This document shows, piece after piece, positions 369-63,254 of a stretch of DNA of 64,000 bases. The notes beneath the pieces were generated by a model, which worked only from the letters and a program-made list of their open reading frames with translations, searched no databases and had not been told where the DNA came from. Numbering within the stretch: the stretch's first letter is position 1; every line of letters begins with the position of its first letter. The stretch comes from Clostridia bacterium. GTDB lineage: Bacteria > Bacillota > Clostridia > Oscillospirales > CAG-272. The stretch spans positions 10,391 to 74,390 of the forward strand of contig JAFVQW010000041.1 in the NCBI GenBank assembly GCA_017504605.1. The letters run 5' to 3'. The position numbers were made by a program, and so were the translations under genes.

Positions 369-395
369 CAAGCCTATAGCCTCCTCTGCTTTAAA

Positions 396-647
396 TCCAA
401 GCCGACGAAGAAGGCTTGGTATGGCATCACGCGTTAGCGTGTATGGAATCCCGACTTCGTCGGGTATGGCATCAATTCGCAGGGCGAACTGTATGGAATC
501 CCGACTTCGTCGGGTATGGCATCTGCCGAAGGCGGTATTTTCGTCGGCTTGATTCCATACCGTCTGTGACGGATTCCATACCGTCTGTGACGGATTCCAT
601 ACCGTCTGCGACGGATTCCATCCACGGCTTCGCCGTGATTTGAAGGA
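396..647. repeat. Hairpin-punctuated repeat array, type A (GTATGGMATC x5, then inverted GATTCCATAC x4)
   Basis: Forward 10-mers lie at 419, 441, 464, 491 and 514. Reverse-complement 10-mers lie at 551, 572, 593 and 614. Every 11-17 nt spacer is a 3-5 bp GC mini-hairpin (acgc-gtta-gcgt, ccgac-ttc-gtcgg, cgtc-tgt-gacg, acggc-ttc-gccgt). An outer stem pairs caagccgacgaa (398-409) with ttcgtcggcttg (540-551). The element recurs at 55789..56170. Confidence 0.85.
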
Positions 648-689
648 GGCGGAGGGGTTGGTTAAGTACCCCGCGCAGTTATTAATTAC

Positions 690-741: not shown

Positions 742-3700
742 ATGCGAAACTTAGCAAAAATCTTGGCTCTTTTGCTTGTTCTTGCTCTTTGCGTTACCGG
801 TATCGTCCTTGCCGTAAGCGCTGACGAGCCTGAGCAGACAATCACAGAGCCGACCTTCGCCGGTATCAAGCCTAATCTTGTAAGGATTGACTCGGCGATA
901 GCAGCACAGCTTGTAGAAGCAGGATTTAATTATCTTGAGTTTGCAGACGAGGCTGCCTTCAACACCGCGAATGCGGGCGGATACGACGCTCTCGCAGCAG
1001 GCGGTAAGACGGGCGAGATCAACGTAACGGGCGGTACTTACATCTACCTGCTCGCTAATACGACCCTGAAGAGTTATTCGATCTCCGCACACAACCTTAG
1101 CACCTGGATTAACCTTGGCGGCAATAAGATTACCTGGCAGTGCAACGGCGGTACCGGTTATGCCCACAACCTCGCTGTATTTGACGGTGACCTTTATCAT
1201 CCGTGGTTTAGTGGAACCTCCGGCCACGCCGCTTACAGAATGTCCGGCGGATCTACGTCTAACGTCTCAGTGGAAAAAGTTACTTTTTCGACGAACAGCA
1301 CGAGCGGCAGATTCTTCTCGAGCGAGGGGACTGCTACTCTCAATCTTTACGTTAATGATTCGACTGTTAACGCAGCCGGCAAGCCGTTCGTTCACATGGG
1401 ATTTGGCGCGGGTGACGCACCCACTGTCAATCTCATACTAAAGAAAACCAACATTACAACTTCCGGAGCAGTTGTAAACTTTGATAATAGTATCTGCACG
1501 GATAAATCGAATCTGTCGATTTATATCGACGGTGCGTCTAAGCTTGACGCTATCATACTTGCAAATGCTACGATCATCACTCCTACCGTTACCGTTGCAA
1601 ACGGTGCGAGCTTCACCGCCAACGGCCGTGCTGCAGTTCAGTCTGCGGGCACTCTCGTTACCGAGAGCGGTGCGGAATTATACAACACCGAGGAAGGCAC
1701 TCATCCCTTCGTTATGATGGTGCCCCCCACCATTCCCGACGATACCAACTTCACCGCGAGTGCGGACTTCAAGACTGCTAACGGCGCTTTCGTCGTATAC
1801 GCTAACGAGTTCGACTTCTACGCAGACCTTGAGGGTGGCGTTATCGACGGTCTCGTTGACGGCAATAGCGTTATCGTTGACGACAACGGTGACACCTTCC
1901 CCACCTCGGGCTACGTTTGTATGCTTCAGAACTACACGCTCCAGCCCGCGTCGACAATCAACGTTACCGGAAAGCTGAAGATTAACCTCGGCGGCACCAC
2001 CTTTACCGAGTCGAGTATTGATACTCTTACCGTCGCTGCTAACGGAGTTCTCGGCATTTACAACGGTAAACTTATAGATGGCTTAAACAGCAATAAACCC
2101 ACGAACACTCTCCTTGCCGGTACGACTCTCAAGGTTAAGAACGTTACCCTTGAGACGACGGGCAACTGGGAGAACTGGTCTTCCACCTTCTGCTTTAACG
2201 GTACGGCTGACATAAGCTTCGAGGACTGTGTTATAAACCATAAAAGCATGCAGACGACTATCGTTAAGCTTGCCGGCGCGGCTTCCTATAACATAGACCT
2301 TAAGAACGTTAATTACAGTAACAGCAAGGGCCACACGATAGCTACCGTGCACAACAGTGGTTACAACTATATTAATAAGAACGGCTCGTACTACGGCTTC
2401 GTATCCACCAACGTGGCGGCTACGATTAATCTCAGCGTTGACAAGGACTGCGTTGTAAACAGCGGTATTCTCGTTAACGCCATGACAACCGGTGCTAAGA
2501 TTACGCTTAACGCCGAGCTCGGATTTAAGATCTGGAGCAACGACTTCACCACCAGTTACATTGTGAAGTCTGTTCAGGATCTGGTAAATAAGAATAACGG
2601 TCTTCCTTGGAACCCCGAATCTGATTTGACCTATACCGCCGTCACTATCGTTGACACCCTTAACTTCACGGAGAACGGCGAGATTGTTACGGCTTCGTTC
2701 GCGAAGAACGGCGACTTCTACGTCGCTTGGAAGGCTGCCAGCGTTACCTGGTACGACAAGAACGGCGATGTTATCTCCTCCGTCGATAACCTCACTCCCG
2801 ATATGGCGCTCACCGCTCCTAAGGAGTTCGTTAACGAAATTATCGCGGTTGAGGGCGGCTACGCTATCAGAGGCGGCGCTTGGTCCGATACTGAGGGCGG
2901 CAGTGCGGTTGAAATTCCCACCGAGATTACTGCCGGCGCAGCTTACGCCTTCTACGAGGTATATACCGAGCAGGCAGCTACCATCGTCGTATTTGACGGC
3001 GAGGGCGGTAGTGCCGTTGATGCATATGCTACCACGAAGCTTACCAAGGATATCGTAGGCGAGTTCCCCGCAGGTGCGTACGTTCTCGTTTGCACCGACC
3101 TTACCGTTGATTACGGCGAAGTCGTTGATATGACCTTTGACAACTACAAGGGCGACCTTACCATCGACCTTGGCGGAAAAACCCTCACCCAGACGAGCTA
3201 CGGCTGGGGTATCGGTATGGCGTGGGCTACTCCCGCGGCAGGCGTTACCGTAACCATTAAGAACGGTGCTATCAACGTTGCTACCACCGCTACCAGCCAG
3301 AATGACATTGCAACTCTTATCTCGGGCACGGGCGCAGGTACGCTTAAGTTCCACGGCGTTGACATCACCACCCTTGGCCACGTAGGTAACATCAAGGCAG
3401 GCAGCGTTGTATTCGAGCTCTGCACCATCAAGCAGCCCAATACCGCTACCAACTGGTCTACGTTCACAATTGCCGACGTAAGCGCGGAAACGAGCGTCGA
3501 CCTCCAGCTCCTCGGAACCTGTCTGAACGTTCAGCAAAATAACGGCGCAAGGTTCACTAGCATAAATGCGGGAACGTACGCGAAGAACATCAGCATCACC
3601 GTTTCCGACTACGAGGGTACGTACTCCTATATCAGGAGTGCATATCTCTACACCTTCACGAGCAAGGGAACCGAAAAGCTTCACGCAGATACCAAGCTTA

Positions 3701-4842
3701 GCTTCACGCTCGAGAACTGCTACGTAAGTGCATACAACAACATGATATCGGGCTGCGGCACGTTCCTTTGGGACACCGACGGCACGGGTACCTATGCGGC
3801 GAACGCTGCGCTTGATAAGCAGAACGTCTCCTTCACCTTCGACAACTTCTTCTATTCGAGAAACGACCTCTTTGATTATGAGAAGAGAAAGAGCCACGTA
3901 ATTCTTAAGACGGCTAACCTCAACGCGTATAAGATAGTTTCGACGGCGACCTCGAGCAACAGCTTTATTGCAATTCCCGAGCTCAATATAGACGTTAACC
4001 TTACGCTTTACAGCGACTTCAACCTTAACCTCTATATTCCCACCGACTTCGTGGCAGACCAGATTACCTATCTCGGTCAGGTTATATTCGATAAGTCGCT
4101 TGCCGACACCTACGACGTAGTTGACGGAAAGTATAAGATAGTTATCGAGAACATTGCTCCCAACAAGGCTGCGAAGAGCATAGAGCTCGGCTTCGTATTC
4201 AACGAGACCGTAACCTTCAACGAGGGCACGAGTATGAGAGACAGAGACATATCTCATACTCTTACCGCAAAGTATTCGGTAATCAAGTATGCGGCTGACC
4301 TCATCGCTACCAACGACGCTAAGAGCGTTGCAGCTATGAAGGCTCTTCTCGGCTACGTTGACGCAGCATATGACAACTTCGACGGCGACGAGAGCGACGA
4401 GGCTACCGTAGCTCTTCTTGACGAGCTTATCGCTGAGAACGGCGTTGCTGCATTCCTTGCGGGCTACACTCCCAAGGCGAGTGAGGGCGACACCGACTTC
4501 GTTACGGTCACCGGCGTTACCGCTGCCTTCCAGATTGGCGCCGTATCTAAGCTCTACGTGACGTTCCCCGCAGGCGCTGAGTGGTCTATCGTAGGCGACA
4601 AGCTTACTAAGACCGGCAAGGGCGGCGAGTGCGTAATCGAGCTTCCCGCATACGCTCTTACCGACGTGCTTACCATAACCGTTGGCGGCGAGACTGCTAC
4701 CTTCTCCTTCGGAGAGTACGCAGAGTATCTTATGAATGACGGCATTGACAACGCGACAGAGGACGCTGTTCTCGTTGCAATGTACGCATACGGCGAGACT
4801 GCAAGAGCTCTCAAGGCTCAGGTCGACGCCGAGAATGCATAA
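742..4842 (+). CDS. P1: 1366-aa secreted protein, largest (three-module) member of the paralogous P family, function unknown
   Basis: Has a ribosome-binding site (aaaaggag) and a Sec signal peptide (MRNLAKILALLLVLALCVTGIVLAVSA/DEP). Three modules each start [GA]Y[VI]..L and lead to INLGG/IDLGGxxLT. Also contains a VTWYDKNGD...GGAWSDTEGG segment and the family C-terminal domain (LTLYSDFNLNLYIP ... FSFGEYAEYLMNDG ... MYAYGETARALKA). Confidence 0.9.
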   Translation: MRNLAKILALLLVLALCVTGIVLAVSADEPEQTITEPTFAGIKPNLVRIDSAIAAQLVEAGFNYLEFADEAAFNTANAGGYDALAAGGKTGEINVTGGTYIYLLANTTLKSYSISAHNLSTWINLGGNKITWQCNGGTGYAHNLAVFDGDLYHPWFSGTSGHAAYRMSGGSTSNVSVEKVTFSTNSTSGRFFSSEGTATLNLYVNDSTVNAAGKPFVHMGFGAGDAPTVNLILKKTNITTSGAVVNFDNSICTDKSNLSIYIDGASKLDAIILANATIITPTVTVANGASFTANGRAAVQSAGTLVTESGAELYNTEEGTHPFVMMVPPTIPDDTNFTASADFKTANGAFVVYANEFDFYADLEGGVIDGLVDGNSVIVDDNGDTFPTSGYVCMLQNYTLQPASTINVTGKLKINLGGTTFTESSIDTLTVAANGVLGIYNGKLIDGLNSNKPTNTLLAGTTLKVKNVTLETTGNWENWSSTFCFNGTADISFEDCVINHKSMQTTIVKLAGAASYNIDLKNVNYSNSKGHTIATVHNSGYNYINKNGSYYGFVSTNVAATINLSVDKDCVVNSGILVNAMTTGAKITLNAELGFKIWSNDFTTSYIVKSVQDLVNKNNGLPWNPESDLTYTAVTIVDTLNFTENGEIVTASFAKNGDFYVAWKAASVTWYDKNGDVISSVDNLTPDMALTAPKEFVNEIIAVEGGYAIRGGAWSDTEGGSAVEIPTEITAGAAYAFYEVYTEQAATIVVFDGEGGSAVDAYATTKLTKDIVGEFPAGAYVLVCTDLTVDYGEVVDMTFDNYKGDLTIDLGGKTLTQTSYGWGIGMAWATPAAGVTVTIKNGAINVATTATSQNDIATLISGTGAGTLKFHGVDITTLGHVGNIKAGSVVFELCTIKQPNTATNWSTFTIADVSAETSVDLQLLGTCLNVQQNNGARFTSINAGTYAKNISITVSDYEGTYSYIRSAYLYTFTSKGTEKLHADTKLSFTLENCYVSAYNNMISGCGTFLWDTDGTGTYAANAALDKQNVSFTFDNFFYSRNDLFDYEKRKSHVILKTANLNAYKIVSTATSSNSFIAIPELNIDVNLTLYSDFNLNLYIPTDFVADQITYLGQVIFDKSLADTYDVVDGKYKIVIENIAPNKAAKSIELGFVFNETVTFNEGTSMRDRDISHTLTAKYSVIKYAADLIATNDAKSVAAMKALLGYVDAAYDNFDGDESDEATVALLDELIAENGVAAFLAGYTPKASEGDTDFVTVTGVTAAFQIGAVSKLYVTFPAGAEWSIVGDKLTKTGKGGECVIELPAYALTDVLTITVGGETATFSFGEYAEYLMNDGIDNATEDAVLVAMYAYGETARALKAQVDAENA

Positions 4843-4855: not shown

Positions 4856-4966
4856 ATGAAAAAGTATGAATCTCCCGAAATCAAAATCACGAGCGTAGAA
4901 GCATCGGATATTATTACCGTGTCCTACGGTAGTACCCCCTGGCTTAACGCAGGATTTGAGTGGTAA
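4856..4966 (+). CDS. Conserved 36-aa peptide MKKYESPEIKITSVEASDIITVSYGSTPWLNAGFEW
   Basis: AAGGAGGGA lies 6 nt upstream of the ATG, and the gene starts 13 nt after the P1 stop. A second copy at 59409..59519 is 29/36 identical, with 9 codons differing only synonymously. Confidence 0.7.
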   Translation: MKKYESPEIKITSVEASDIITVSYGSTPWLNAGFEW

Positions 4967-4973
4967 AAGCCAC

Positions 4974-5206
4974 GTTCCATATCCCCCTCGCCCTCGGGCG
5001 AGGGGATATGGAGTTATATTGCTCGCGCGGCGAGCAGTTATATTGTTGCTTCGCAACAGTTATATTCGCCTTGCGGCGAGTTAGATTAAAGTGAAAGTTG
5101 AAAACCGAGAGTTGAAGGTGACCGTATACATTTTCAATTTTCCGTTTTCCATTTTCAATTAAAATAGCGCGCACAGCGCGCATTCTATACACCCCGGGAG
5201 GTAATT
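4974..5206 (+). repeat. Conserved intergenic cassette, copy 1 (strong hairpin + AGTTATATT/hairpin array + AGTTGAA/TTCAATT arms + 5' leader of P2)
   Basis: Near-identical to 8389..8625 and related to 59524..59713. Contains a 15-bp stem at 4977..5011 (ccatatccccctcgcc/ggcgaggggatatgg). AGTTATATT occurs at 5012, 5036 and 5058 (AGTTAGATT at 5079), separated by mini-hairpins. A gcgcgc-aca-gcgcgc hairpin precedes the ribosome-binding site GGGAGG. Confidence 0.85.
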
Positions 5207-8200
5207 ATGAAAAAAATGAGAAGGCTTTTTGCTCTTTTGACCGTGGCGGCGCTTCTGTGTGCCGCGCTCACGCTCGCGGTGGGCGCGAATACCGACGGCG
5301 CGGGAGCCGAATATCTTGACGAGGTGCCCGAGGACCTGAGCTTCACCGCGACTTCCGAGCTCGCGGCGGCCTCCGGCAGCTACGTCGTCTATGAGAGCGA
5401 GCTCGACTTCTACCGCGACCTCGAGAACGGCGTTATCGACGGCCTCGCGGACGGTGAGAGCGTTATATCCACAAAGACCTTCACGGATTTCCCGACCTCG
5501 GGCTACGTGTGTATGCTTAAGAACTTCACCCTTCAGCCGAAGACGGTCGGAAGCCCCGTAAGCATTCCCGCGGGCGGCTCGCTTAAGATTAATCTCGGCG
5601 GTCACACCTTCACCGAGAAGGGCTGTGCGGGCAAGAGCGGAAACACCGACGGCTGTACCCCCATATCCGTCGGCGCCGGTGCTACACTCGGCTTCTATAA
5701 CGGCTCTCTTGTGGATAGCCTGTCGAGTAAGTTTACCACCAACCTCATGGCCGCGGGTGCGAGACTCGAGCTTCGGGATATCAACCTCACCGCGAGAATG
5801 ACCTGGGAGAACTGGTCGAGCACCTTCCAGTTCAACGGCGCGGGCAGTGTGCTTATGGATAACTGCAAGGTCACTCAGGGCACCCAGGTAACCGTATTCT
5901 ATATGAACGGCAACAGTACTCTTGACTTCGATATTCGGGGGCTTGACTATACCGACAACGGAACGCACACCCTCTACAACAAGAACACCGGTGCCGTGCA
6001 GAATAACGGAGCCTTCTACGGTATGATTTCGACCTCGAGAGCGGGTGCAACCCTCAATCTTAACGTTGACGGCGACACCGTCGTTCGCTCGGGCAACCTC
6101 GTAAACTGCTCCGTCTCGGGAGCTACGGTAAATCTCAACGCCGAGGTCGGCTTCACAATGGCGCGCGAGAGCTTCGTTAACGATTACATACAGCACTCCG
6201 CGTTCCAGAACTTCAGCTCCGTCGACAGGCTCAGCGTTATCGTCGACGGCGTCGTTGACAGCGAGAGCAACGCTACCTTCGTTTCATCGGGTGGCCTCTA
6301 CGTTCTTAAGATAATTGATGCAACGATTTATTGGTACGACGAGCACGGCGTGCTTCTTTTCGAGCAGAGTGCCGTGTCGGGTGAGATTCCCGCGTACGAC
6401 TACGCGCTCCCTGCGTTCGGTGTTTTTGGCGACGCGGCCTACAAGCTCACCGCGGGCGGCTGGGCTCTCTCGGCCGACGGTGACGTTCTCGACGAGCTTT
6501 CCCCCGTTATGAAGTCTGAGGGCGAGAGAAAATATTACTACGTTCCCGAGAAGACCGCTCTTGCGGTTGCCGTCTTCTCCGATGACACCTGTCGGAGCAT
6601 TGTCGGCGGCTGGGTCGACAGACAGATAACGAGAGAGCTTCTCGCTACAATCCCCGCGGGTGCCTACGTTAAGCTCTTCGGCGATATAGGCGTGAACCCC
6701 GGTCTCACGGATGCCGCCGCTACTGTAATGGATAATTACGCAACGGGTATAGTCTTTGACCTCTCGGGCTACACGATGGTTCACCTGAAGGAGGGCGAGT
6801 CGGCTAAGCGCTGGGCCCCCCTTGACGGCAAAACCATCACCTTCAAGAACGGAAAAATGCAGGTAATAGGCGAGGACAGCCTCATCTGTTCCGAGGCAAG
6901 CGGCGGCAGCATCAGGCTCTATGACGTTCTGCTCGTCTCGGATGCCAAGACCGCGCCCATTCTCGAGCTTCGCTCGGGCAGGGTAGAGCTATATGGCGGC
7001 TCGATATTCTCGCTCGGCACGACTCCGATTTCCTGTAATGCCTACAGCTCCTCCTCGAGCGCTACGCTTACGCTCGGGCTCCACGGAGTTGATATAGATG
7101 CGGCCGATAATCCTCTTATGACCGTCTCCGTCGCGCAGAAGGCCGACAGGGCGGCCGCCGTAGACGTCACGGTCGGCGCGTATGACGACGTGCCCACCAC
7201 CCTTCGCTCGGGCTCGTTTATTTCCTTCGGTGATATGACGGCTCTCTCGAGGGCCACCACCGTCACCGTATCCGTAAGAGACACCTACGCTCTCCTTACG
7301 GGCGAGGCTCTCGTCGGTGCGGACGGCGCTATTGCGACCTGGTACGATGCCGTGACGGGCAACTCCGCGGCAGACACCGCGACCGAGGCTCGCAATATAA
7401 GGCTTTCCTTCGACAATTATTACACCAACCGTCGGCTTACGCAAATCGGCTCGGCGAGCCTCGAGTGCGGCGTTACGATCACAGCGGAGGGTATGGGCCG
7501 ATACACCGTAATTTACAGTGCGCCGAAGCTCGAGGGCCCCATGGCCTCTCTCACTCTCGAGAGCGACTTCGACCTCAACCTCTACGTTCCACAAAGCTCG
7601 AACGTAGTTAAGATAATGATAGGCGATGCGGTTCTCTTCGACCGTAACGATCCCACAACCTACGAGCTCTCCGAGGGCGTTTACAGATTCGCTATATCGG
7701 GCATATCCCCCGAGAATGCGGCAAGCTATATCGCTCTTGATATAACCTACGTCGACGAGATCGTGGTTCCCGAGGTGGGGAAGGCCGAGCTCGACTTCAC
7801 CGTCCGCGCCTACTACTCGGTGATAAATTATGCCGAGGACCTTCTCGAGAGTGCCGACGGCACCACCGAGGCTAAGAACGCTATGAGGGCGCTCCTCGCA
7901 TACGTTCGCGCGGCGTATGACAACTTTGAGGGCAGTGGCAGCCCCGAGCTTCTTTCAAGACTTGACAGCCTTTACACCGAGTACGGTGCAGGGGCGTACG
8001 TTGACTCGCTCGCGGGCGATATTCGCGGCGATGATAGCGACTTCGGTGCTGAGAGCGGAATTACCGCACAGTTCGCCATAGGCTCGGTAACGAAGCTCTA
8101 CATCAGCTTCCCCGAGAGCGTGGACTACGTCATCACCGACGCCGAGAGCGGCGTCACGGTGGCTATCGGCACGGGCAGAGCCTGCACGGTAGAGCTCCCC

Positions 8201-8383
8201 GCATATCTTCTTGCCGAGACTCTTGAGATTACCGTCGGCGACAAATCCGCTATCTTCTCCTTCGGCGAGTATGCCGATGCGCTTATGAATGACGGCACAG
8301 AGAACGCCTCCGAGGATGCGGTGCTCCGTGCTATGTACGCGTACGGCAGGGCGGCGAAGGCGCTTCGCGCGGCTAAGGCCTGA
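5207..8383 (+). CDS. P2: 1058-aa secreted protein of the P family
   Basis: Signal peptide MKKMRRLFALLTVAALLCAALTLAVGA. Family motifs present: YVVYESELDFYRDLENGVIDGLADG, GYVCMLKNFTLQP...KINLGGHTFTE, IYWYDEHG, FDLSGYTMVH, LTLESDFDLNLYVP, FSFGEYADALMNDG...MYAYGRAAKALRA. Confidence 0.9.
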   Translation: MKKMRRLFALLTVAALLCAALTLAVGANTDGAGAEYLDEVPEDLSFTATSELAAASGSYVVYESELDFYRDLENGVIDGLADGESVISTKTFTDFPTSGYVCMLKNFTLQPKTVGSPVSIPAGGSLKINLGGHTFTEKGCAGKSGNTDGCTPISVGAGATLGFYNGSLVDSLSSKFTTNLMAAGARLELRDINLTARMTWENWSSTFQFNGAGSVLMDNCKVTQGTQVTVFYMNGNSTLDFDIRGLDYTDNGTHTLYNKNTGAVQNNGAFYGMISTSRAGATLNLNVDGDTVVRSGNLVNCSVSGATVNLNAEVGFTMARESFVNDYIQHSAFQNFSSVDRLSVIVDGVVDSESNATFVSSGGLYVLKIIDATIYWYDEHGVLLFEQSAVSGEIPAYDYALPAFGVFGDAAYKLTAGGWALSADGDVLDELSPVMKSEGERKYYYVPEKTALAVAVFSDDTCRSIVGGWVDRQITRELLATIPAGAYVKLFGDIGVNPGLTDAAATVMDNYATGIVFDLSGYTMVHLKEGESAKRWAPLDGKTITFKNGKMQVIGEDSLICSEASGGSIRLYDVLLVSDAKTAPILELRSGRVELYGGSIFSLGTTPISCNAYSSSSSATLTLGLHGVDIDAADNPLMTVSVAQKADRAAAVDVTVGAYDDVPTTLRSGSFISFGDMTALSRATTVTVSVRDTYALLTGEALVGADGAIATWYDAVTGNSAADTATEARNIRLSFDNYYTNRRLTQIGSASLECGVTITAEGMGRYTVIYSAPKLEGPMASLTLESDFDLNLYVPQSSNVVKIMIGDAVLFDRNDPTTYELSEGVYRFAISGISPENAASYIALDITYVDEIVVPEVGKAELDFTVRAYYSVINYAEDLLESADGTTEAKNAMRALLAYVRAAYDNFEGSGSPELLSRLDSLYTEYGAGAYVDSLAGDIRGDDSDFGAESGITAQFAIGSVTKLYISFPESVDYVITDAESGVTVAIGTGRACTVELPAYLLAETLEITVGDKSAIFSFGEYADALMNDGTENASEDAVLRAMYAYGRAAKALRAAKA

Positions 8384-8388
8384 CGGCT

Positions 8389-8625
8389 GTTCCATATCCC
8401 CTCGCCCTCGGGCGAGGGGGATATGGAGTATATTGCTCGCGCGGCGAGCAGTTATATTGTCGCTTCGCAACAGTTATATTCGCCTTGCGGCGAGTTAGAT
8501 TAAAGTGAAAGTTGAAAACCGAGAGTTGAAAGCTGTGCCGTTTTTTGCACTTTCAATTTTCCATTTTCCATTTTCAATTAAAATAGCGCGCACAGCGCGC
8601 ATTCTATACACCCCGGGAGGTAATT
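8389..8625 (+). repeat. Conserved intergenic cassette, copy 2 (upstream of P3)
   Basis: Same hairpin (8392..8426), same three AGTTATATT/hairpin units and same leader as copy 1. Identity continues through the first 21 nt of the downstream CDS (atgaaaaaaatgagaaggctt). Confidence 0.85.
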
Positions 8626-11600
8626 ATGAAAAAAATGAGAAGGCTTACGTCGTTTGTTCTCGTGCTCGCGCTTATAGCGGCGGTGCTCGCGAGTATGCCC
8701 GCCGACACGGCACTCGCGGCAGAGGCGGGGAATAGCGAATACCCAACGCCCGATGCTGCTCTTGCTGAGACAGCTACGTCGGATACGAGAGTGAGAAGAA
8801 TTACAGATACGACCTCGCCGACGGAGTATTCGACGGCATAGCACTCGGTAAGTCGGTTATCGTTGCCTCGCTTTCCAATAAGGTAAGCGCGACGTTTTCA
8901 CCGTCCACAACGGCTAACGGATATATAGTTTGCTTAAAGGACGTCGACCTCGTCGGCTCGGGCACGAATAATCGCTTCCAGATGGGCGCGACTCAGGAGC
9001 TCACCGTCGACCTTTCGGGTCACAAGATGAATATGCTCGGCGAGATATCGATTGGAGGCGCGGGCGGCATTATGTCCTCCGTCCTCACCGTTAAAAACGG
9101 TACGATGATGCTCGAGGGCTCGCTTCAGTCCTCGGGGAAATCTATGTATCAGCTTATCGCACTCCGCCGCGGAGCGAAGATGTATCTCAACAACGTCGAC
9201 GTTGTTCACGGCAAGACGGCGAGGTATTCCATTTTCATTTACGATAACGGCGGCAGCGTTTATATGACGAACTCCTCTCTCGACCTCGGCCCGCGCACCT
9301 TCTGCGCGCTCTACCTTACGAGCTTGAACTGCACCTGTAATGACTGCGCACAGGACAAGACGACACGCGAAACTCAGGAGTTTATCTTTGACGGAGTTAC
9401 CGTCTACTCGGCACAGGTTCTTTTCACTGTAAACCCGAAGGCGCACGGCTTGGACGGCGACTATTACAACGCGGTTGCAGACATCGCCTTCAAGGGCGGC
9501 TCCAAGATTAAAACGACCTCCCGAGCCCCGAAGAGCCTCTTTACCTTCGGTGACGAGTCTAAGAACGCGGCGGCAATCGCGGCGATGAGGGCGTCGAAGA
9601 TGAACCTCACCTTTGAGGAGGGAACGGCGTTCTCAGAGGCGGCCTTCCTCGACGGCGAGCTCGCGGCTAAGTACACTCTTACGGTCGTTGACAAGAACGG
9701 AGACCCGATTACCGACTATCGGACGGGATATTCCGCGGACGACACCTTCCCCGAGATGATTGCGAGAAACGAGTACACGGTCAGCTGGTATGCCTACGAC
9801 GGCACGCTCCTTGAGGCTATTAAGTACGCCGAGGGGGCCACTCCCTCGCACTCCGCTCCCGAGCACCCCGACAATCTCACGATGGATGCCGAGGGCAACG
9901 TGCTTCTTAAGCGCCACGACGGCTGGTCTCGGACCGAGGGCGCAACGACGGCTGAGGCTATTACGGCTGTTTTGGCGGATACCGCCTATTACGCCGTATA
10001 CGCCGACGAGCTCGCGGCAGTTTATACCAAGGACTCGGGCGGCAACCTCACCGCGGGCTTCCGCGATGCCGATATCGGCTCCGAGGCTATAGCGGCACTC
10101 GCCAACGGCTCCAAGCTTTATCTTAATACCGATGCTACTCTTTCGCAAAATATAAGCACACCGAACCTAAGCATTGAGCTTCAGGGAAATACCCTCACGC
10201 TCCTCGGCGCGGCCCTTATCCCGAGTGGCACTATGACCGTAAGCGGCGGTACGCTTCTTGCCGACGGAGTATGCCCCTTCGTTATCGACGGTGGCGCGAT
10301 GCTCACTCTTAACGGCGTTTCGGTCTCGGCCATCGATGCAGTAATTGCCGAGATAAATAACGGAGTAATAGAGGTTGTCGGCGGCGAGCTCCGCGCGAGC
10401 TCTGCTACTATGATGGGCGCTATCGCGGCCTACGGTAATGCGGAGGTGATAATTCGCGGTGCGAGCGTGCGCACGAGAAACGCATTCGGCAGCTCCGCCG
10501 TCGTATATGCGGCGTCCGGCGCCTCGATCGTAAGCGTAAGCGTAACGAACAACGGCGGCACCGACCCCCGCTTTAACGTAGACGGCACTCTCATTTACGC
10601 TGACGGCGACGTCGGCTACGGAGTGGTTGAGGCTACGGTTGTAGATACCGATATTTTCCATCTCGGCGAGCTCGTTGCGACCTCCGCAGAGACTGCCGAT
10701 TTCGTCGACGTAATTATCCGAAACGCAAAAATCGGACGTCAGTCGAGCGGCGCTAATTTCCGCACCCAGAACGGCGCGCCCCTTTATACACCCCTTGACC
10801 CCAATACTCCCGTGACCGACATAGATGTCGAGTTCGAGGTTTACTCCTCGCTCACCGTTTCTAAGGAATTCACTCTTAACTTCTACATTCCCGAGGGCAG
10901 CCCCGTTGTCGACGTTATTGTCGGCGGCGTGTCCTACTTCGACGTTAACAGCCTTGATTCTTACGAGAAGACGGTGCACGAGGGCGTGTCCTGCTATCGC
11001 GTTGAGTGCGGCAGCTTCACCGCAAAGAACGCTATCTCCGCGCGCCGCGTGCAGTACGTTATCGAGCACGAGGGAGGGCGTTACTCGCTCGACAGCACCT
11101 ATTCGATTGTTGAGTACTGCGCCGACGTTCTCGCGGGCGACTATTCCGACATTACCAAGACGCTGATGCTCGACATTCTCTGCTATATCAGAGAGGGCTA
11201 CGACTTCTTCGTCGGCGGTGGCGCCACCGAGGAGGAGCTTGCACTTGTTGATAGCCTCATCGGTGACTACGATTCCAAGGAGGAGATACCCGCGGACACC
11301 GCCGACCTCTCGGCACTCTCGGGCCTCGTTTCCTCGGTACAGTTCGCGGCAAATGACAGAATTACGATGAGAATAGCTCTCACCGAGGCCGCAAAGAGCG
11401 AGAAAATAAGAATTTATTACGGCACCGCGGCCGCGCTCGCGGTGAACGGCACCGATGCCGATTTCCTTGAAATCGACGTTCCCCTCTTCGCTCTTACCGA
11501 TACTATACAGATAGTCGTCGGCGAGGCGAGCGCGGAGTACAGCTTCGCGGCCTACGTCGCGGCGGTTGCCGACGCCTACTCCGAGAGCTGCCCCGAGCTC

Positions 11601-11705
11601 TGCGATATGCTCGCGGCGACTCTTCGCCTCGGCAAGAGCGCGAGAAGGTACGAGGGCGCGGGACTGCCCGATACGCCGAGTATCGAGCCCGACTTCGAGT
11701 TCTAA
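8626..11705 (+). pseudogene. P3: P-family member interrupted by a frameshift near 8767-8775 (or an assembly error)
   Basis: The signal-peptide ORF 8626..8841 (MKKMRRLTSFVLVLALIAAVLA...) is in frame 1. Family homology (SYVGYESEKNYRYDLADGVFDGIALG...VDLSGHKMN) continues in frame 0, which opens at 8769 after a TGA at 8766-8768 and runs to 11705. The 8982 ATG is internal. Confidence 0.7.
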
Positions 11706-51100: not shown

Positions 51101-52658
51101 CGGCTCCTACTCCGAGTCGGTCGGATATTGGGATGCCTCGACACAGGGCTATCACCAGATGACCGCGGTGCTTGAGTCGGTTACCGGCTCCACCTTCGGC
51201 TACCTCGATACCTGGGGTATGGATAGGACCTACTATTTCGCTCTCTCCTTTGAGTCGAGCGACCACTACACCTGGCCCTTCCACGACGACTCTGCGAGCG
51301 AGCTGTCTACTCCGCTTATGATGTATTATTCCACGGCCTCGGGCGACAGCGTTCTCGGTCAGATAAGGAAGATACAGCTGGCACAGGGTAAGACTCCGAC
51401 GATATGGGATGCGATTTACTATCAGGATGCCGATGCAGACGGAGATATTGAGCTTCCCCTTACCTTCACCGCATCGAAGATAGAGGCCTTCGTGGCCAGA
51501 ACCTCGTGGGAGAAGGGAGCGCTCTTCACGGGAATTATGGGCGGATATAACGGCGAGGGCCACGCTCATATGGACTCGGGCAACTGGGTTTACTACAACA
51601 AGGGCATTAACTGGTTTAAGGACCTTGGAAGCGACAACTACAACGTATATAACTATTGGAGCTCCTACCACGTATACAGAAGGAGCGCCGAGGGACACAA
51701 CCTCTTTATAATGAACACATCCTCCTACGAGTACGGTATGGACCTTCAGGGCACGGGCTACCTCACCGACACACTGGTTAACGAGCACGGCTCCTACGCC
51801 ATCATTGACCAGTCCGAGGTATACGGCGGCTCGAAAATGGTTAACTATGCTCGCCGCGGTATGCTTATTACCAACGACAACAACACCGTTGTTATTCAGG
51901 ACGAGGTACAGTTTAAGACCATGACCAAGTCCTATTGGATAGCACACGTGAACGTTGCGCGAAGCAACGTGATGGGCTTCGTTGAAAAGATTGAGGTTTC
52001 AGCGGATAAGAAGGTGGCCTATCTCCACGGTGTCAACCGGAGCAAGGGCGAGAGATACACCCTGCGCGTAACGCTTATCACGGCGGTTCTCGGTGCGGGC
52101 TTCGAGGTCTGGGATGCGGGTATGAGTGACTTTGCGCTTCCCGGCACCTACCGCCCCGGCTACTCCGAGTCTATGGGCGGAGAGCCTCAGACGAGTAACG
52201 TCGGTGCACAGAGGCTCGTCGTAGAAATAAAGGACAGAACCGAGGTTAAGATAGCCGTGGCTATCGAGCTTGTAGACAGAGAAAACGAGCTTGAGACCGG
52301 CTACAAGATGACCGATATGAAGAAGTGGGCGCCCGCGGCCGACACTCGCGGATATATAGCAGATGCGGTCGAGACCCGCTCCTCTCACGTAAACGGCGTT
52401 TATACCAACGTATCTCAGCTCCAGGCCTTTGAACCGAGCACTCTCCTCGGCGTGAATATGGAGGAGGCCTACAAGAAAATGGCTAATATAGGTTACATAG
52501 TAAGTAAGAACCAGAATATAGTCAACGTTGATTATTACAAGGAGCTCCTTGTAACCTACTACGACTGCCGTGCGACATACGACGGCTTCATTAAGAATGC
52601 CAATGCGGCGGCGGCCACCGCACGCGAGCTGGTCGGTGAGCTCTTCGGCTCCCGATGA
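48114..52658 (+). CDS. 1514-aa secreted heparinase II/III-like polysaccharide lyase with two LamG-like modules and a copper-amine-oxidase-N-like domain
   Basis: Signal peptide ...SLFSVFAYA. Two LamG-like modules (GSWQHFLFEIDYD..LDTVALYHG; GEWLRISIMLDF..GIDNLAVYWG) and a VKVDGKVLLPLQSIIDFTGA stalk. DHPYLFANQDKFDELRR is toroid-like. GEGHAHMDSGNWVYYNKGINWFKDLG and AEGHNLFIMN are heparinase II/III C-domain-like. Confidence 0.8.
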   Translation: MKIRKTSSRILSFLLLLSIIASLFSVFAYAATDESVGTAESAEGAGLSVVYNRGFAEGWDYTNGLTPYIEGDVSYGIEYVKMSASRYEYYLNVEVNGESEGYLEIDAGDNLPASGKQFLTFDARAEEDADIVGAVIAMTAGEGSASEMMHLLSYVDGEIYSLGRKVGEADGSWQHFLFEIDYDYEGESEREFLVTLYLDGEAFTSVQSAGKGGFGIGSVLIGAGADEDRTGGSYQLDTVALYHGVDAPTDIPNGNFGTAVDRTLVRNFTILGLGERTDDPNVLSGTPALDRISTSSVSVLYNRHYGEGWDWSNGFNSLSTSKLASNLAELRSDYSFIVNKSENFLNHYLAIEKKNDTLGYVYLAPESNDNSPLIASTSGKVFIEFDMKTSDNNGTMLLTLITDPKSEGDTLVYTDNGELYLLGRKVGTVGGEWLRISIMLDFAGIYRDGSYSAEAHYGSEGGVVYSSYTATTPTVTNLRFGTADKKAGNTGDWFGIDNLAVYWGASTFVNLPSDELGELVNTRLEKDFALSVEGESLTVNEIYNASLTMKVGSSFAYLLGKQVKIYETESGERYGAPVKVDGKVLLPLQSIIDFTGATLIPHDDFKSFEVFLGSTLSYLTLGSTDAIIGGKRVSLAAAPAVVEAGEGMSYVVIGMDDLEAIFPGFYVVWDDCGLLTVTEYKNFINRNMSGAFDTMVSIMRKFLYDYVDGDTVYEMAKEHTNNFDHPYLFANQDKFDELRRVYYAAPGDEDFNAELAGYMQVRVDRADERLGALAELDETGRYLGVKPEKIPVNTNYVTEPGNNGYDVGGRLNLIYRDDYTGALEDIAFAYQVTGNTVYAEFLLDFIGYFCDDELWPHWGPSHFLNVAESVIHMAIAYDWCYDAWMEISPEQTMHIRAKLYEKGGYHGYNSMLTTVCPKEFISAKGYRCYNYHITTNNWNTVCSNGMVVTALALFDIDTNADMDKINNNEALSQMKALVSGDIRSLVNYAMHYYQFDGSYSESVGYWDASTQGYHQMTAVLESVTGSTFGYLDTWGMDRTYYFALSFESSDHYTWPFHDDSASELSTPLMMYYSTASGDSVLGQIRKIQLAQGKTPTIWDAIYYQDADADGDIELPLTFTASKIEAFVARTSWEKGALFTGIMGGYNGEGHAHMDSGNWVYYNKGINWFKDLGSDNYNVYNYWSSYHVYRRSAEGHNLFIMNTSSYEYGMDLQGTGYLTDTLVNEHGSYAIIDQSEVYGGSKMVNYARRGMLITNDNNTVVIQDEVQFKTMTKSYWIAHVNVARSNVMGFVEKIEVSADKKVAYLHGVNRSKGERYTLRVTLITAVLGAGFEVWDAGMSDFALPGTYRPGYSESMGGEPQTSNVGAQRLVVEIKDRTEVKIAVAIELVDRENELETGYKMTDMKKWAPAADTRGYIADAVETRSSHVNGVYTNVSQLQAFEPSTLLGVNMEEAYKKMANIGYIVSKNQNIVNVDYYKELLVTYYDCRATYDGFIKNANAAAATARELVGELFGSR

Positions 52659-52675
52659 GGTCGAAAGGAGAGAAT

Positions 52676-55777: not shown

Positions 55778-55788
55778 GTTTAAAAAAG

Positions 55789-56170
55789 CCTCCACTGTTC
55801 TAAATCCAAGCCGACGAAGGAGGCTTGGTATGGCATCACGCGTTAGCGTGTATGGAATCCCGACTTCGTCGGGTATGGCATCAGCCGAGGGGCTGTATTT
55901 CGTCGGCTTGATTCCATGCCGTCTGAGACGTATTCCATACCGCCACAAGTGGCGGATTCCATCCACGGCTTCGCCGTGATTTGAAGAAAACTAAAGCTTA
56001 TAACCTCCACTGTTCTAAATCCAAGCCGACGAAGGAGGCTTGGTATGGCATCACGCGTTAGCGTGTATGGAATCCCGACTTCGTCGGGTATGGCATCAGC
56101 CGAGGGGCTGTATTTCGTCGGCTTGATTCCAAGCCGTCTGAGACGGATTCCATACCGCCATGGGCGGACT
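55789..56170. repeat. Two tandem copies of the type A hairpin-punctuated repeat element
   Basis: Copy A is about 55789-55987 and copy B about 56004-56170. Both start cctccactgttctaaatccaagccgacgaaggaggcttggtatggcatc and carry 3 forward GTATGGMATC units and 2-3 reverse GATTCCATAC-like units. They are homologous to 376..647. Confidence 0.85.
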
Positions 56171-56224
56171 GCTCTAAAAATGCATAATGCAGAATTCATA
56201 ATGCATAATGCATAATTAATTAAT

Positions 56225-59519: not shown

Positions 59520-59523
59520 AACC

Positions 59524-63020: not shown

Positions 63021-63065
63021 AGAGATAACAAATCGGTTGGCAGCCGAAATGTTATCTCTTTTTTG
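63021..63065 (+). terminator. Rho-independent terminator after P6
   Basis: agagataaca-(loop)-tgttatctct followed by tttttg. Confidence 0.7.
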
Positions 63066-63081
63066 TCGTTTTTAGTTTAGA

Positions 63082-63227: not shown

Positions 63228-63254
63228 GTTAAGCGCGATTGTCCGTTAAGGACA

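What the first reader, a model, noticed from the sequence alone, without database searches (positions are those of the whole stretch)
396..647. Nested hairpin array: 10-nt direct repeats, then their inverted copies, each separated by a self-complementary GC mini-hairpin
Five GTATGG(A/C)ATC units are followed by four GATTCCATAC units, the exact reverse complement.

Every 11-17 nt spacer is itself a 3-5 bp GC stem with a 3-4 nt loop (loops gtta, ttc, agg, gaa, tgt, tgc).

The forward half is bracketed by a 12-bp stem (caagccgacgaa / ttcgtcggcttg). The element can therefore fold at three nested scales.

It superficially resembles a miniature CRISPR, but the dimensions are wrong. It is closer to modular BOX/REP-type elements, yet with an architecture I do not recognise.

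It sits between the heparinase-like gene and P1, and again between P4 and P5.
Basis: seen in the sequence. Interest (0 to 1): 0.65.

Follow-up and report, generated by a model that had tools for sequence, protein, structure and literature searches.

The report
Polar linker–hairpin repeat element family
The finding is real: it is one copy of a previously undescribed, widespread family of structured DNA repeats in gut Clostridia, made of an invariant 10-base linker alternating with small GC hairpins, which normally sits just after tRNA genes and whose function is still unknown.

Summary
Window 370-655 holds five GTATGG(A/C)ATC units and four inverted units, and every spacer is a GC mini-hairpin. 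A 12-bp stem (398-409/540-551) brackets the forward half. Two shorter tandem copies lie at 55787-56168.

It is neither chance nor a duplication relic. The same grammar occurs in about 50 loci from ruminant and other animal-gut Clostridia genomes. No Rfam family, paper or viral contig matches it.

- **Supported structure:** the mini-hairpins (73% of 173 unique spacers have at least 4 perfect pairs, against 0.6% shuffled) and the bracket stem (at least 9 covarying variants).
- **Unsupported structure:** pairing of forward with inverted 10-mers shows no compensation at all.
- **Polarity:** loop sequences (C-G-closed GNA/GNNA) follow the linker's orientation, so the two halves are the same unit on opposite strands.
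- **Canonical context:** tRNA gene, bidirectional terminator, element, then a PF05635 four-helix-bundle gene with no promoter of its own.
- **Window copies:** orphans, upstream of large secreted-protein genes.
- **Dynamics:** unit number and element number differ between strains.

Best reading (about 0.4): a REP/BIME-like post-terminator repeat, maintained at the DNA level and recognised through its linker by an unknown factor. The main rival (about 0.3) is a cis-acting RNA leader.

The parts
370..397 (+). 5' leader of the window subfamily (AAGCCTATAGCCTCCTCTGCTTTAAATC), ending in the ATC that opens the first hairpin. In most other species a bidirectional terminator occupies this position.
   Evidence: Conserved in all three window copies and at both tandem junctions. 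Pairs with 637-655 in the minimum-free-energy fold.
398..409 (+). 5' arm of the long-range bracket stem S (CAAGCCGACGAA). Bases 398-403 can alternatively pair locally with 413-418 (hairpin H0, CAAGCC/GGCTTG, 9-nt loop).
   Evidence: Perfect 12-bp complement of 540-551 (I7). S is 10-14 bp in 29 unique elements, with at least 9 covarying variants. RNAalifold chooses S over H0.
419..523 (+). Forward array: five linkers GTATGG(C/A)ATC (419-428, 441-450, 464-473, 491-500, 514-523) separated by mini-hairpins H1-H4 (429-440, 451-463, 474-490, 501-513). 440-473 and 490-523 are an exact internal duplicate.
   Evidence: (D3, D4). Hairpin statistics.
524..539 (+). Last forward-half hairpin TGCCGAAGGCGG (a CCGAAGG mini-hairpin) followed by TATTTT. 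This is a weak intrinsic-terminator-like site.
   Evidence: Flagged by the terminator scan. The position is conserved in other species as hairpin + G(T/C)ATTT(T)C.
540..551 (+). 3' arm of bracket stem S (TTCGTCGGCTTG).
551..636 (+). Inverted array: GATTCCATAC at 551, 572 and 593, and GATTCCATCC at 614, with hairpins 561-571, 582-592, 603-613 and 624-636. It is a 21-nt tandem repeat of 3.4 copies. Its 'sense' strand is the - strand.
   Evidence: (D1). Loops on the + strand are T(N)NC in 25 of 43 and G(N)NA in 0 of 43 across the family. One 21-nt unit is absent in strain contig L066.
637..655 (+). Right end GATTTGAAGGAGGCGGAGG. It starts with the truncated unit GATT, and its purine-rich, SD-like tail resembles the ribosome-binding region of the PF05635 gene in canonical copies.
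   Evidence: for example L045 GATTTGGATGCGAAAGGAGAA. The resemblance is weak, and this reading is an inference.
55787..55988 (+). Copy 2 (3 forward + 3 inverted units), directly after the stop codon of the 52655-55777 gene.
56004..56168 (+). Copy 3 (3 forward + 2 inverted units, 3' end truncated), in tandem with copy 2 and upstream of the 56273-59395 gene.
   Evidence: The junction sequence is the same as in the tandem pair of strain contig L065.

Best explanation
**What it is (shown).** Window 370-655, with 55787-55988 and 56004-56168, are copies of a modular 'linker-hairpin array' repeat family found in uncultured animal-gut Clostridia (MAGs labelled Eubacteriales, Oscillospiraceae, Acutalibacteraceae).

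- A unit is an invariant 10-nt linker GTATGG(A/C)ATC plus a 4-7 bp GC mini-hairpin.
- The hairpin stems come from a limited repertoire shared between species. The loops vary.
- A full element has a 5' domain of 3-5 units (up to 13), clamped by a covarying 10-14 bp long-range stem.
- It also has a 3' domain of 1-4 units of opposite polarity.
- Canonically it starts at ATC, directly after the T-run of the bidirectional terminator of a tRNA gene. It ends at GATT, directly before the ribosome-binding site of a PF05635 (23S-rRNA-IVS / Avd-like) four-helix-bundle gene that has no promoter of its own.

**How it most likely works (inferred).** It behaves like REP/BIME-type extragenic repeats.

- It is kept and reshaped at the DNA level by unit slippage, whole-element tandem duplication and homogenisation between copies.
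- The hairpins probably fold in transiently single-stranded DNA, on whichever strand carries the linker in the GTATGG sense.
- The invariant linker is the recognition site of a conserved trans-acting factor that has not been identified.
- Lodged in post-terminator zones, the element is crossed by read-through transcription. There it probably acts as an insulator, a back-up terminator or an RNA-end barrier.

**The window copies.** They are orphans, with no tRNA and no PF05635 gene nearby. They separate an upstream gene from the P1 and P5 secreted-protein genes.
For: **Family and grammar.**
- The pattern scan returned 63 loci, of which about 50 are real. About 12 chance hits were expected, and these lie in coding DNA of Chryseobacterium, Prevotella and others.
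- 173 unique spacers: 73% have at least 4 perfect terminal pairs, against 0.6% of shuffled spacers.

**Bracket stem.**
- It is present in 29 unique elements with at least 9 covarying variants.
- RNAalifold finds it independently, with 11 of 18 pairs doubly compensated.

**Polarity and DNA-type loops.**
- On the strand where the linker reads GTATGGMATC, loops are GAA 32, GCA 17, GTA 15 and GGA 8, plus GNNA. The closing pair is almost always C-G. The complement TTC occurs only 4 times.
- In canonical elements the forward half has G(N)NA 9 and T(N)NC 1 of 30. The inverted half has G(N)NA 0 and T(N)NC 25 of 43 on the + strand.
- One transcript cannot carry both halves in the sense orientation.
- C-G-closed GNA/GNNA loops are the 'mini-hairpin DNA' motif. 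They are much more stable in DNA than in RNA, and they occur in single-strand initiation signals (PMC13037366, PMC3201870).
- The adjacent true terminators instead use tetraloops (TTCG in 5 of 26); only 1 of 26 has a GNA triloop.

**Multi-copy and dynamic.**
- Metagenome word depth over the element is 374 against 17 in the flanks, and 42-137 against about 6.
- Many copies lie at contig ends.
- A strain with an identical P1 protein has two tandem copies; another lacks one 21-nt unit.
- Copies within one genome share the element but have different terminators (L037/L058, L007/L031, L027/L052).
- Window copies are about 97% identical over 95 nt, while P1 and P5 are 36% identical.
- Hairpin stems recur at different positions and in different species.

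**Post-terminator position.**
- At least 26 loci lie after tRNA genes of 11 anticodon types, or after tRNA 3' fragments.
- L087 shows a consensus promoter, then tRNA, terminator, element, SD plus PF05635 gene, and a terminator.

**Generality.** Two other linker families with the same grammar lie in the same window.
Against: **No machinery found.**
- No transposase, RAYT or HUH gene recurs within 2.5 kb of about 50 arrays. Whole genomes could not be searched.
- No target-site duplication and no empty site were seen, so mobility is not demonstrated. Homogenisation by gene conversion would give the same pattern.

**Features that fit an RNA equally well or better.**
- The element keeps a position-specific architecture at apparently orthologous tRNA loci: F1 is C-type, F2 A-type, F3 often GCATGGCATC, and the clamp is always on the tRNA side. 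This looks more like a selected functional structure than like selfish DNA.
- A long-range clamp enclosing three hairpins is typical of structured RNAs.
- The PF05635 gene must be transcribed through the element.

**Evidence that does not discriminate.**
- The G.T versus A.C bias is small (8 against 2 in hairpins; 5 against 4 in the clamp).
- The argument from loops rests on thermodynamic knowledge, not on an experiment here.
- No usable RNA-seq was found.
Confidence: 0.4

Rival explanations
1. **Cis-acting structured RNA leader or spacer.** The element is transcribed by read-through of the upstream terminator. In canonical copies this is the tRNA operon terminator; in the window it is the end of the upstream gene. 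The clamp domain (stem S closing a loop with three hairpins and three conserved single-stranded 8-10-mers) is a protein-binding or processing module. It sets the amount, the 5' end or the stability of the downstream mRNA (PF05635 gene; P1/P5 in the window). The linker-binding protein could be the PF05635 pentamer itself, acting by autoregulation, with orphan copies as further targets.
For: - L087 and L067 have a consensus promoter only upstream of the tRNA. The SD of the PF05635 gene follows the element's GATT by 1-50 nt, with no intervening promoter.
- The clamp stem and hairpins covary.
- H0 and S are mutually exclusive pairings, which is switch-like.
- The architecture is position-specific and conserved across species.
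- The PF05635 gene or its remnants follow the element at several different tRNA loci.
- The closest solved relative, 2RLD, has five chains in its single entry.
- There are slightly more G.T than A.C pairs on the sense strand.
Against: - The inverted half has its loop bias on the opposite strand (0 of 43 G(N)NA on the + strand). In most loci the next gene is co-directional, so a sense transcript of that half is unlikely.
- The loops are DNA-type GNA triloops, unlike the neighbouring RNA terminators.
- A second PF05635 subfamily sits after tRNAs without this array and with its own promoter. The gene-array link may therefore only reflect a shared liking for tRNA flanks.
- The only RNA contigs available start inside the P1 coding region, at 755, and none covers the element. 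This evidence is weak.
- The PF05635 protein here is not markedly basic (reading of the sequence).
Confidence: 0.3
2. **Single-strand DNA priming or replication-restart signal.** This is an ssi/primosome-assembly-like site placed downstream of heavily transcribed tRNA operons. There is one set of hairpins per strand, so a replisome disrupted by a collision with transcription can be reloaded or re-primed from either direction.
For: - CCGAAGG and other C-G-closed GNA mini-hairpins are the hallmark of the G4-type and RSF1010 ssiA priming signals (PMC13037366). CCGAAGG itself is at window 526-532 and recurs in H0 and H3 of many copies.
- The two halves lie on opposite strands.
- The location after tRNA genes is strongly non-random.
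Against: - It explains neither the invariant linker, nor the clamp stem, nor the window copies that sit far from any tRNA.
- Chromosomal ssi arrays of this kind are not known to me.
- Nothing here tests priming.
Confidence: 0.08
3. **Stand-alone small RNA or protein sponge.** On this reading it would be a CsrB/RsmZ-like RNA that titrates an RNA-binding protein through the repeated GGA-containing linkers, transcribed from its own promoter.
For: - It has repeated single-stranded motifs between hairpins.
- The A-type linker UAUGGAAU contains GGA.
- On the minus strand, a bidirectional terminator lies at the element's distal end.
Against: - No promoter-like site flanks the element. The tRNA-side terminator abuts the first base.
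- Half of the linkers are GGC, not GGA.
- No RNA evidence was found.
Confidence: 0.07
4. **Guide-RNA array of the CRISPR or TIGR-Tas kind.** The variable parts would specify targets.
For: It alternates constant and variable segments. The stem-loop arrays of TIGR systems also have 'variable but consistently palindromic' segments (PMC12045711).
Against: - The variable parts are only 4-7 bp self-complementary stems from a small shared repertoire, which is too short to guide anything.
- There are no box C/D motifs and no 8-12 nt spacers.
- No cas or Nop-domain gene is among the recurrent neighbours.
- The PF05635 protein gives no PADLOC hit.
Confidence: 0.02
5. **Invertible DNA switch.** The 12-bp inverted repeats 398-409 and 540-551 would be recombination sites that flip the forward array.
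For: A perfect inverted repeat flanks a 130-bp segment upstream of surface or secreted-protein genes. The arms stay identical within each species.
Against: - All 33 unique canonical elements from many strains and species have the same arrangement. No flipped form was seen.
- The repeat sequence differs between species, which is unlike recombinase sites.
- No invertase gene lies nearby.
Confidence: 0.03

Closest known systems
REP / BIME elements of Enterobacteria and Pseudomonas (with RAYT transposases)
   Same: Both are extragenic, GC-rich and hairpin-forming. Both are strand-polar units that occur in both orientations within one composite element. Both are multi-copy, lie typically just after genes or terminators, and vary in unit number.
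   Different: REPs are 20-40 nt palindromes whose sequence is conserved within a genome, with a GTAG tetranucleotide. Here the constant part is a single-stranded 10-mer, and the hairpins are short and diverse. No RAYT was found nearby. The long-range clamp and the tRNA-flank specificity have no REP counterpart.
BOX elements of Streptococcus pneumoniae (boxA-boxB(n)-boxC)
   Same: Both are modular, with a variable number of internal units and a stable predicted fold. Both are intergenic and non-autonomous.
   Different: BOX modules are 45-59 nt and conserved in sequence. They have no constant-linker/variable-hairpin alternation, no polarity switch and no association with tRNA terminators. (This comparison is from my own knowledge, not tested here.)
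TIGR-Tas stem-loop arrays (PMC12045711)
   Same: Both are arrays in which some segments are 'variable but consistently palindromic' while short motifs stay constant.
   Different: TIGR units carry box C/D motifs and two 8-12 nt spacers, and lie next to a Nop-domain Tas gene. None of these is present here.
Mini-hairpin DNA in single-strand initiation signals (phage G4 origin, RSF1010 ssiA/ssiB)
   Same: Both have C-G-closed GNA/GNNA loops, including the exact CCGAAGG. In both, the hairpins sit on opposite strands of one locus.
   Different: ssi signals are single sites in plasmid or phage origins, with a cognate primase. They are not chromosomal arrays with an invariant linker (PMC13037366).
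23S rRNA intervening sequences carrying a PF05635 ORF
   Same: In both, a structured non-coding segment plus a PF05635 four-helix-bundle gene is embedded in a stable-RNA (rRNA or tRNA) transcription unit, with a sporadic distribution.
   Different: IVSs lie inside the 23S rRNA and are excised by RNase III at one long stem. Here the segment lies after a tRNA terminator and is a hairpin array. (IVS properties are from my own knowledge.)
CRISPR arrays
   Same: Both show regular alternation of constant and variable segments.
   Different: The dimensions are wrong: a 10-nt repeat and 11-17 nt palindromic 'spacers'. There is an inverted second half, a shared repertoire of stems and no cas genes.

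Membership tests
Any Rfam family | Covariance-model score at or above the family's gathering threshold | tested here: not met
   There were 0 hits in the window at the gathering threshold. At E up to 10 only chance-level hits appeared (best 16.8 bits against a gathering score of 34.7). Nothing overlapped the arrays in 18 related loci.
CRISPR | Direct repeats of 23-50 nt with unique, non-palindromic spacers of similar length | tested here: not met
   The repeat is 10 nt, the spacers are 11-17 nt and self-complementary, and the second half is inverted.
CRISPR | Adjacent cas genes | tested here: not met
   No recurrent neighbour other than PF05635 was found in about 50 loci. The window ORFs that were scanned are housekeeping genes or have no hit.
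TIGR-Tas | Box C / box D motifs flanking two 8-12 nt spacers in each unit | tested here: not met
   A unit is a 10-nt linker plus a hairpin. It has no RUGAUGA/CUGA motifs and no spacers (compared with PMC12045711).
TIGR-Tas | Neighbouring Nop-domain Tas protein | tested here: not met
   None is among the recurrent neighbours.
REP/BIME | A palindromic unit conserved in sequence within a genome, with a flanking GTAG/CTAC | tested here: not met
   Hairpins differ within one element (71 distinct stems in the family). The flank is GTAT, not GTAG.
REP/BIME | A cognate RAYT (Y1 transposase) gene in the genome, itself flanked by REPs | not testable with these tools
   None was found within 2.5 kb of the arrays. 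Whole genomes of the hosts could not be scanned.
REP/BIME | Extragenic, multi-copy, units in both orientations | tested here: met
   All copies are intergenic. Depth is 10-20 times that of the flanks. Forward and inverted halves are both present.
MITE | Terminal inverted repeats and a target-site duplication | tested here: not met
   Only ATC...GAT is shared at the ends. No duplication flanks the copies.
Invertible promoter (inverton) | Both orientations of the IR-flanked segment present among strains | tested here: not met
   33 of 33 unique elements are in one arrangement.
Intrinsic terminator | GC-rich hairpin followed by a U-tract | tested here: inconclusive
   Only the central hairpin 524-535 plus TATTTTC passes the scan, with a 5-bp stem. 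The other hairpins have no T-run.
Integron attC site | R''/R' core sites (RYYYAAC / GTTRRRY) closing an imperfect hairpin, with an integron integrase present | tested here: not met
   The clamp arms are CAAGCC.../...GGCTTG. No integrase recurs, although one serine recombinase of an inserted element is seen in L077.

The most novel reading that the evidence does not exclude
The arrays are the cis sites of an undescribed nucleic-acid system of gut Clostridia. On this reading they are strand-polar arrays of DNA mini-hairpins, read through an invariant 10-mer by a dedicated trans factor. The candidate factor is the co-located PF05635/Avd-like four-helix-bundle pentamer. The system would be installed at the 3' flank of tRNA operons, which are both the most heavily transcribed sites and the main integration hot-spots of mobile elements. 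It could guard or manage these sites, or it could propagate as a new class of repeat without a classical transposase. This would give PF05635 its first function outside diversity-generating retroelements.
Probability: 0.15. Interest if true: 0.85.

Novelty: new variant of a known kind. Interest (0 to 1): 0.62.

Why it matters
- **A new repeat grammar.** Small structured repeats (REP, BIME, BOX, ERIC) shape transcription, mRNA stability and genome plasticity, but they are known almost only from cultured Proteobacteria and streptococci. This family is widespread in the uncultured Clostridia that dominate ruminant and other animal guts. Its grammar, a constant single-stranded linker with a variable mini-hairpin, a polarity switch and a covarying clamp, matches no described element.
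- **A testable link.** Its tight, repeated placement between tRNA terminators and PF05635 genes ties together three poorly understood things: what lies downstream of tRNA operons, what PF05635 proteins do, and how such repeats arise and are kept.
- **A practical consequence.** These arrays break metagenome assemblies (many copies lie at contig ends) and generate spurious ORFs. Recognising them would improve annotation of metagenome-assembled genomes.

Tried and rejected
- **RNA evidence.** Four run searches found only one metatranscriptome, X15. Its contigs cover the P1 coding region from 755 and a low-complexity AATGCAT repeat, but never the element.
- **Metagenome scan.** A scan with the window's own 31-nt left end gave a single hit, L064. 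The viral contig scan gave none.
- **Forward/inverted pairing ('ladder' of four-way junctions).** Rejected, because the variable positions are never compensated.
- **Strand assignment from wobble pairs.** Inconclusive: 8 against 2 in hairpins and 5 against 4 in the clamp. The G.U frequency is the same as in the neighbouring terminators.
- **Symmetric 'between two convergent terminators' model.** Only about a quarter of the elements have a terminator on the right. Most are followed by a co-directional gene.
- **Inversion switch.** No flipped form was seen.
- **Partner transposase.** None recurs near the arrays. A cluster of 'ORFs' through the element is an artefact of the repeat.
- **PF05635 as a defence gene.** No PADLOC hit.
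- **Literature.** Searches for the 10-mers, for hairpin arrays and for PF05635 found no description of this element.
- **Apparent extra hit at 19592.** It lies inside a small membrane-protein gene and is not an element.
- **tRNA-end duplication after the PF05635 gene.** None was found, so the element plus gene is not bounded like a classical tRNA-integrated island.
Full report
**1. The observation**

- Five forward units GTATGG(C/A)ATC start at 419, 441, 464, 491 and 514.
- Inverted units GATTCCATAC start at 551, 572 and 593. A one-mismatch copy, GATTCCATCC, starts at 614.
- All nine spacers (11-17 nt) are GC mini-hairpins.
- CAAGCCGACGAA (398-409) is perfectly complementary to TTCGTCGGCTTG (540-551).

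The signal is well above chance. The 10-mer with up to 1 mismatch occurs 22 times in the window against 5.0 +/- 2.2 in shuffles, and 19 of the 22 lie in three elements. The region folds far better than shuffles, with z = -6.9 and -7.5 on the two strands.

The second site holds two shorter tandem copies, at 55787-55988 and 56004-56168. All three copies share a 5' leader (AAGCYTATARCCTCCNCTGYTYTAAATC) and the same orientation. They are co-directional with the flanking genes.

**2. It is a widespread family, not a local relic**

One scan of 185,579 species-representative genomes with GTATGGCATC-N10-20-GTATGGAATC returned 63 loci.
- About 12 hits are expected by chance. These are visibly coding DNA of Chryseobacterium, Prevotella and others.
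- About 50 hits are arrays with the same grammar. They come from metagenome-assembled genomes of goat, sheep, deer and other animal guts, labelled Clostridia, Eubacteriales, Oscillospiraceae or Acutalibacteraceae.

No known family or description matches.
- Rfam has no match at the gathering threshold, or at E up to 10.
- IMG/VR viral contigs have no match.
- Literature searches for the motifs found nothing relevant.

Within the window, the two sites are upstream of paralogous genes. P1 and P5 are only 36% identical in protein, while the elements are about 97% identical over their first 95 nt. The copies are therefore young or homogenised, not remnants of the old gene duplication.

**3. Anatomy of the family**

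The canonical element reads as follows:

[tRNA gene] - [bidirectional terminator: A-run, 10-21 bp perfect stem, T-run] - ATC - H0 (CAAGCC-loop-GGCTTG) - F1 GTATGGCATC - hairpin - F2 GTATGGAATC - hairpin - F3 G(C/T)ATGGCATC - hairpin - G(T/C)AT + T-rich - (N)CGGCTTG - R1 ATTCCATAC - hairpin - R2 - hairpin - R3 - hairpin - GATT

- The number of forward units ranges from 2 to 13 (L027), and of inverted units from 0 to 4 (L003 has none).
- Purely unidirectional arrays also exist (L002, L011, L014, L023, L036).
- Each hairpin is extended by a C-G pair formed from the C of ATC and the G of GTAT. This leaves about 8 unpaired linker bases.

**4. Which structures are supported**

(a) *Mini-hairpins.* Of 173 unique spacers, 73% have at least 4 perfect terminal pairs, against 0.6% of shuffled spacers.

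(b) *Bracket stem S.* It is 10-14 bp in 29 unique elements. At least nine sequence variants all stay complementary. Examples:
- CAAGCCGACGAA / TTCGTCGGCTTG
- CAAGACCGAAGG / CCTTCGGTCTTG
- CAATCCGACC / GGTCGGATTG
- AAGTCGCAGA / TCTGCGACTT
- CAAACTGAAGG / CCTTCAGTTTG

RNAalifold on 22 left halves independently predicts S plus hairpins, with 11 of 18 pairs showing double compensatory changes. S uses the 5' arm and the loop of H0, so H0 and S are mutually exclusive.

(c) *Pairing of forward with inverted linkers.* This is not supported.
- At variable position 7 the putative pairs are A-T 45, C.T 48, A.G 6 and C-G 0.
- At position 2 there are C.A 13 against C-G 1.

**5. Polarity**

Loops are strongly biased. 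On the strand where the linker reads GTATGGMATC they are GAA 32, GCA 17, AAA 17, GTA 15 and GGA 8, plus GNNA tetraloops. They are nearly always closed by C-G. The complement TTC occurs only 4 times.

In canonical elements:

| Half | G(N)NA on + strand | T(N)NC on + strand | Loops scored |
|---|---|---|---|
| Forward | 9 | 1 | 30 |
| Inverted | 0 | 25 | 43 |

The inverted half is thus the same polar unit on the other strand, and no single transcript carries both halves in sense.

C-G-closed GNA/GNNA loops are the 'mini-hairpin DNA' motif. They are much more stable in DNA than in RNA, and they are found in single-strand initiation signals (PMC13037366; PMC3201870). The true terminators next to the elements use tetraloops instead: TTCG in 5 of 26, with only 1 GNA triloop in 26.

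Wobble pairs do not discriminate between strands or between RNA and DNA.

**6. Genomic context**

Bipartite elements lie directly after tRNA genes in at least 26 loci, covering 11 anticodon types: Met, Glu-TTC, Glu-CTC, Lys, Thr, Arg-CCG, Trp, Gln-CTG, Gln-TTG, Val and Leu. Where no tRNA is called, a tRNA 3'-end fragment precedes the terminator.

Several loci show small inserts, or a mobile element ending in a large serine recombinase gene, wedged between the tRNA and the terminator-element block, with the tRNA 3' end duplicated. The terminator plus element is therefore the original downstream flank of the tRNA.

Copies in one genome share the element but have different terminators (L037/L058, L007/L031). 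The repeat therefore begins at ATC.

The only recurrent protein neighbour is a 117-aa PF05635/TIGR02436 four-helix-bundle gene.
- The closest solved relative is 2RLD, whose single PDB entry has five chains with that sequence.
- The gene starts 1-50 nt after GATT in L012, L045, L046, L047, L061, L067-L087.
- It is frameshifted in L029 and reduced to remnants in L008, L020 and L038.
- A 39%-identical paralogue lies upstream of the element in L003.

L087 shows the whole unit: TTGACA-17-TATAAT, tRNA-Glu, terminator, element, SD plus gene, terminator. The gene has no promoter of its own.

A second PF05635 subfamity also sits after tRNA plus terminator. It has a long CT/AG inverted repeat and its own promoter instead of this array. 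The gene's liking for tRNA flanks is therefore general, and its link to the array may be partly positional.

The window itself has no tRNA and no PF05635 gene. Its copies are orphans. They follow a heparinase-like gene and the P4 gene, and they precede the P1 and P5 genes.

**7. Dynamics**

- A contig encoding an identical P1 protein carries two tandem elements upstream of P1. Another lacks one 21-nt inverted unit.
- The tandem junction is the same as in window copies 2 and 3.
- Word depth over the element is 10-20 times that of the flanks in three metagenomes. Many copies lie at contig ends.
- Hairpin stems form a limited repertoire of 71 stems. ACGC/GCGT occurs in 23 loci with nine different loops. 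Stems appear at different positions in different species, and homologous loci can carry entirely different hairpins. Units are therefore shuffled or replaced faster than the flanks diverge.

**8. Interpretation**

Any model must explain six things:
1. An invariant linker, which implies a conserved trans factor.
2. Polar hairpins with DNA-type loops.
3. Two halves of opposite polarity.
4. An asymmetric covarying clamp.
5. A post-terminator position, mostly after tRNAs.
6. Rapid unit turnover.

I favour (about 0.4) a REP/BIME-like element that is maintained at the DNA level. On this view it folds in transiently single-stranded DNA, is recognised through the linker, and acts incidentally or by selection as a post-terminator insulator or barrier for read-through transcription.

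The main rival (about 0.3) is a cis-acting RNA leader whose clamp domain binds a protein, possibly PF05635, and controls the downstream gene. It explains points 1, 4 and 5 and the promoter-less gene, but not points 2 and 3.

Minor rivals:
- An ssi-like priming or restart site (0.08).
- A stand-alone sponge RNA (0.07).
- An inversion switch (0.03).
- A guide array (0.02).

The shown and inferred steps are kept apart in the structured fields.

**9. Comparison and novelty**

The element fails the defining tests of CRISPR, TIGR-Tas, REP/BIME (sequence-conserved palindrome, GTAG), MITEs, invertons and attC sites, and it matches no Rfam family.

It works most like REP/BIME or BOX repeats: extragenic, modular, structured and polar. 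I rate it a new variant of that broad kind.

Two further linker families with the same grammar lie in the same window. The first uses AGTTATATT and occurs at three sites. The second uses GTTATGAG forward and TCATAAC inverted, and follows a terminator at 63060-63250. The grammar is therefore a general property of this lineage, which raises the interest.

**10. Limits**

- No usable transcript data were available.
- Host genomes could not be searched as wholes.
- The DNA-versus-RNA argument rests on loop thermodynamics from the literature.
- The function remains an inference.

Noticed in passing
window 4960-5090, 8385-8500, 59520-59590: A second linker-hairpin array family: AGTTATATT plus a GC hairpin, three units. 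Each array is preceded by a 39-nt perfect hairpin (gttccatatcccctcgccctcgggcgaggggatatggag) and followed by ATTTTCA/TTTTCCA 7-mer tandem repeats (5130-5160, 8543-8579, 59637-59667). All lie upstream of P-family genes.
   Followed up: partly
window 63060-63250: A third family with the same bipartite grammar: GTTATGAG forward units, then TCATAAC inverted units, separated by hairpins with GAA or GTAA loops. It lies directly after a bidirectional terminator and between convergent genes. One hairpin (aatgcgaagcatt) is identical to hairpins in GTATGG arrays of other species.
   Followed up: partly
window 4857-4967 and 59410-59520: A conserved 36-aa ORF (MKKYESPEI(K/V)IT...TPWLNA(G/E)FEW) with a good SD, immediately after the P1 and P5 genes. 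It has no Pfam hit. It may be a small secreted or modified peptide.
   Followed up: partly
window 742-4842, 5207-8383, 8982-11705, 52655-55777, 56273-59395, 59702-62929: A family of large secreted proteins (907-1366 aa, with signal peptides) that have no significant Pfam or NCBIfam match. P1 and P5 are 36% identical overall, but the signal peptide and the last ~120 aa are about 75-80% identical. This mosaic suggests recombination at the gene ends. The neighbouring genes include heparinase II/III-like and laminin-G-like proteins.
   Followed up: partly
window 56179-56216: An AATGCAT 7-mer tandem repeat (5.4 copies) between copy 3 and the P5 gene. Metagenome word depth here is 3300-4600 against about 6 in the flanks, so this simple repeat is extremely common in the samples.
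   Followed up: no
window 63262-63383: (TCGGGAAGACCC) x 10.2 tandem repeat inside the 3' part of a minus-strand ORF, where it encodes a repeated short peptide motif.
   Followed up: no
L089 1000-1200, L096 990-1200, L101 860-1067: A second PF05635 subfamily (39% identical to the first) also lies downstream of tRNA plus terminator. It is separated from them by a long CT-rich/AG-rich inverted repeat and has its own TTGAAT-N17-TATAAT promoter. PF05635 genes therefore appear to be general residents of tRNA 3' flanks in Clostridia.
   Followed up: partly
L070 1000-1260, L081 1085-1310, L085 135-330, L062 3000-3160, L012 7330-7470, L077 1-1320: Small inserts with a duplicated tRNA 3' end lie between the tRNA and the terminator-element block. 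In L077 a mobile element ending in a large serine recombinase gene abuts TCACCA plus terminator plus element. These look like scars of integration at the tRNA 3' end.
   Followed up: partly
L002, L023, L036, L055 (MAG RGIG2083): Unidirectional GTATGG arrays alternate with another ~130-nt repeat (…gtcatcctgagcctgtcgaagttttgcgagcgagg…gaagggatctcgccc…), forming long composite repeats.
   Followed up: no
L036 146-220, L011 7840-7919: Gut-1 RNA (RF01706) genes lie in two of the array-bearing loci, several kb from the arrays. This is probably unrelated.
   Followed up: no
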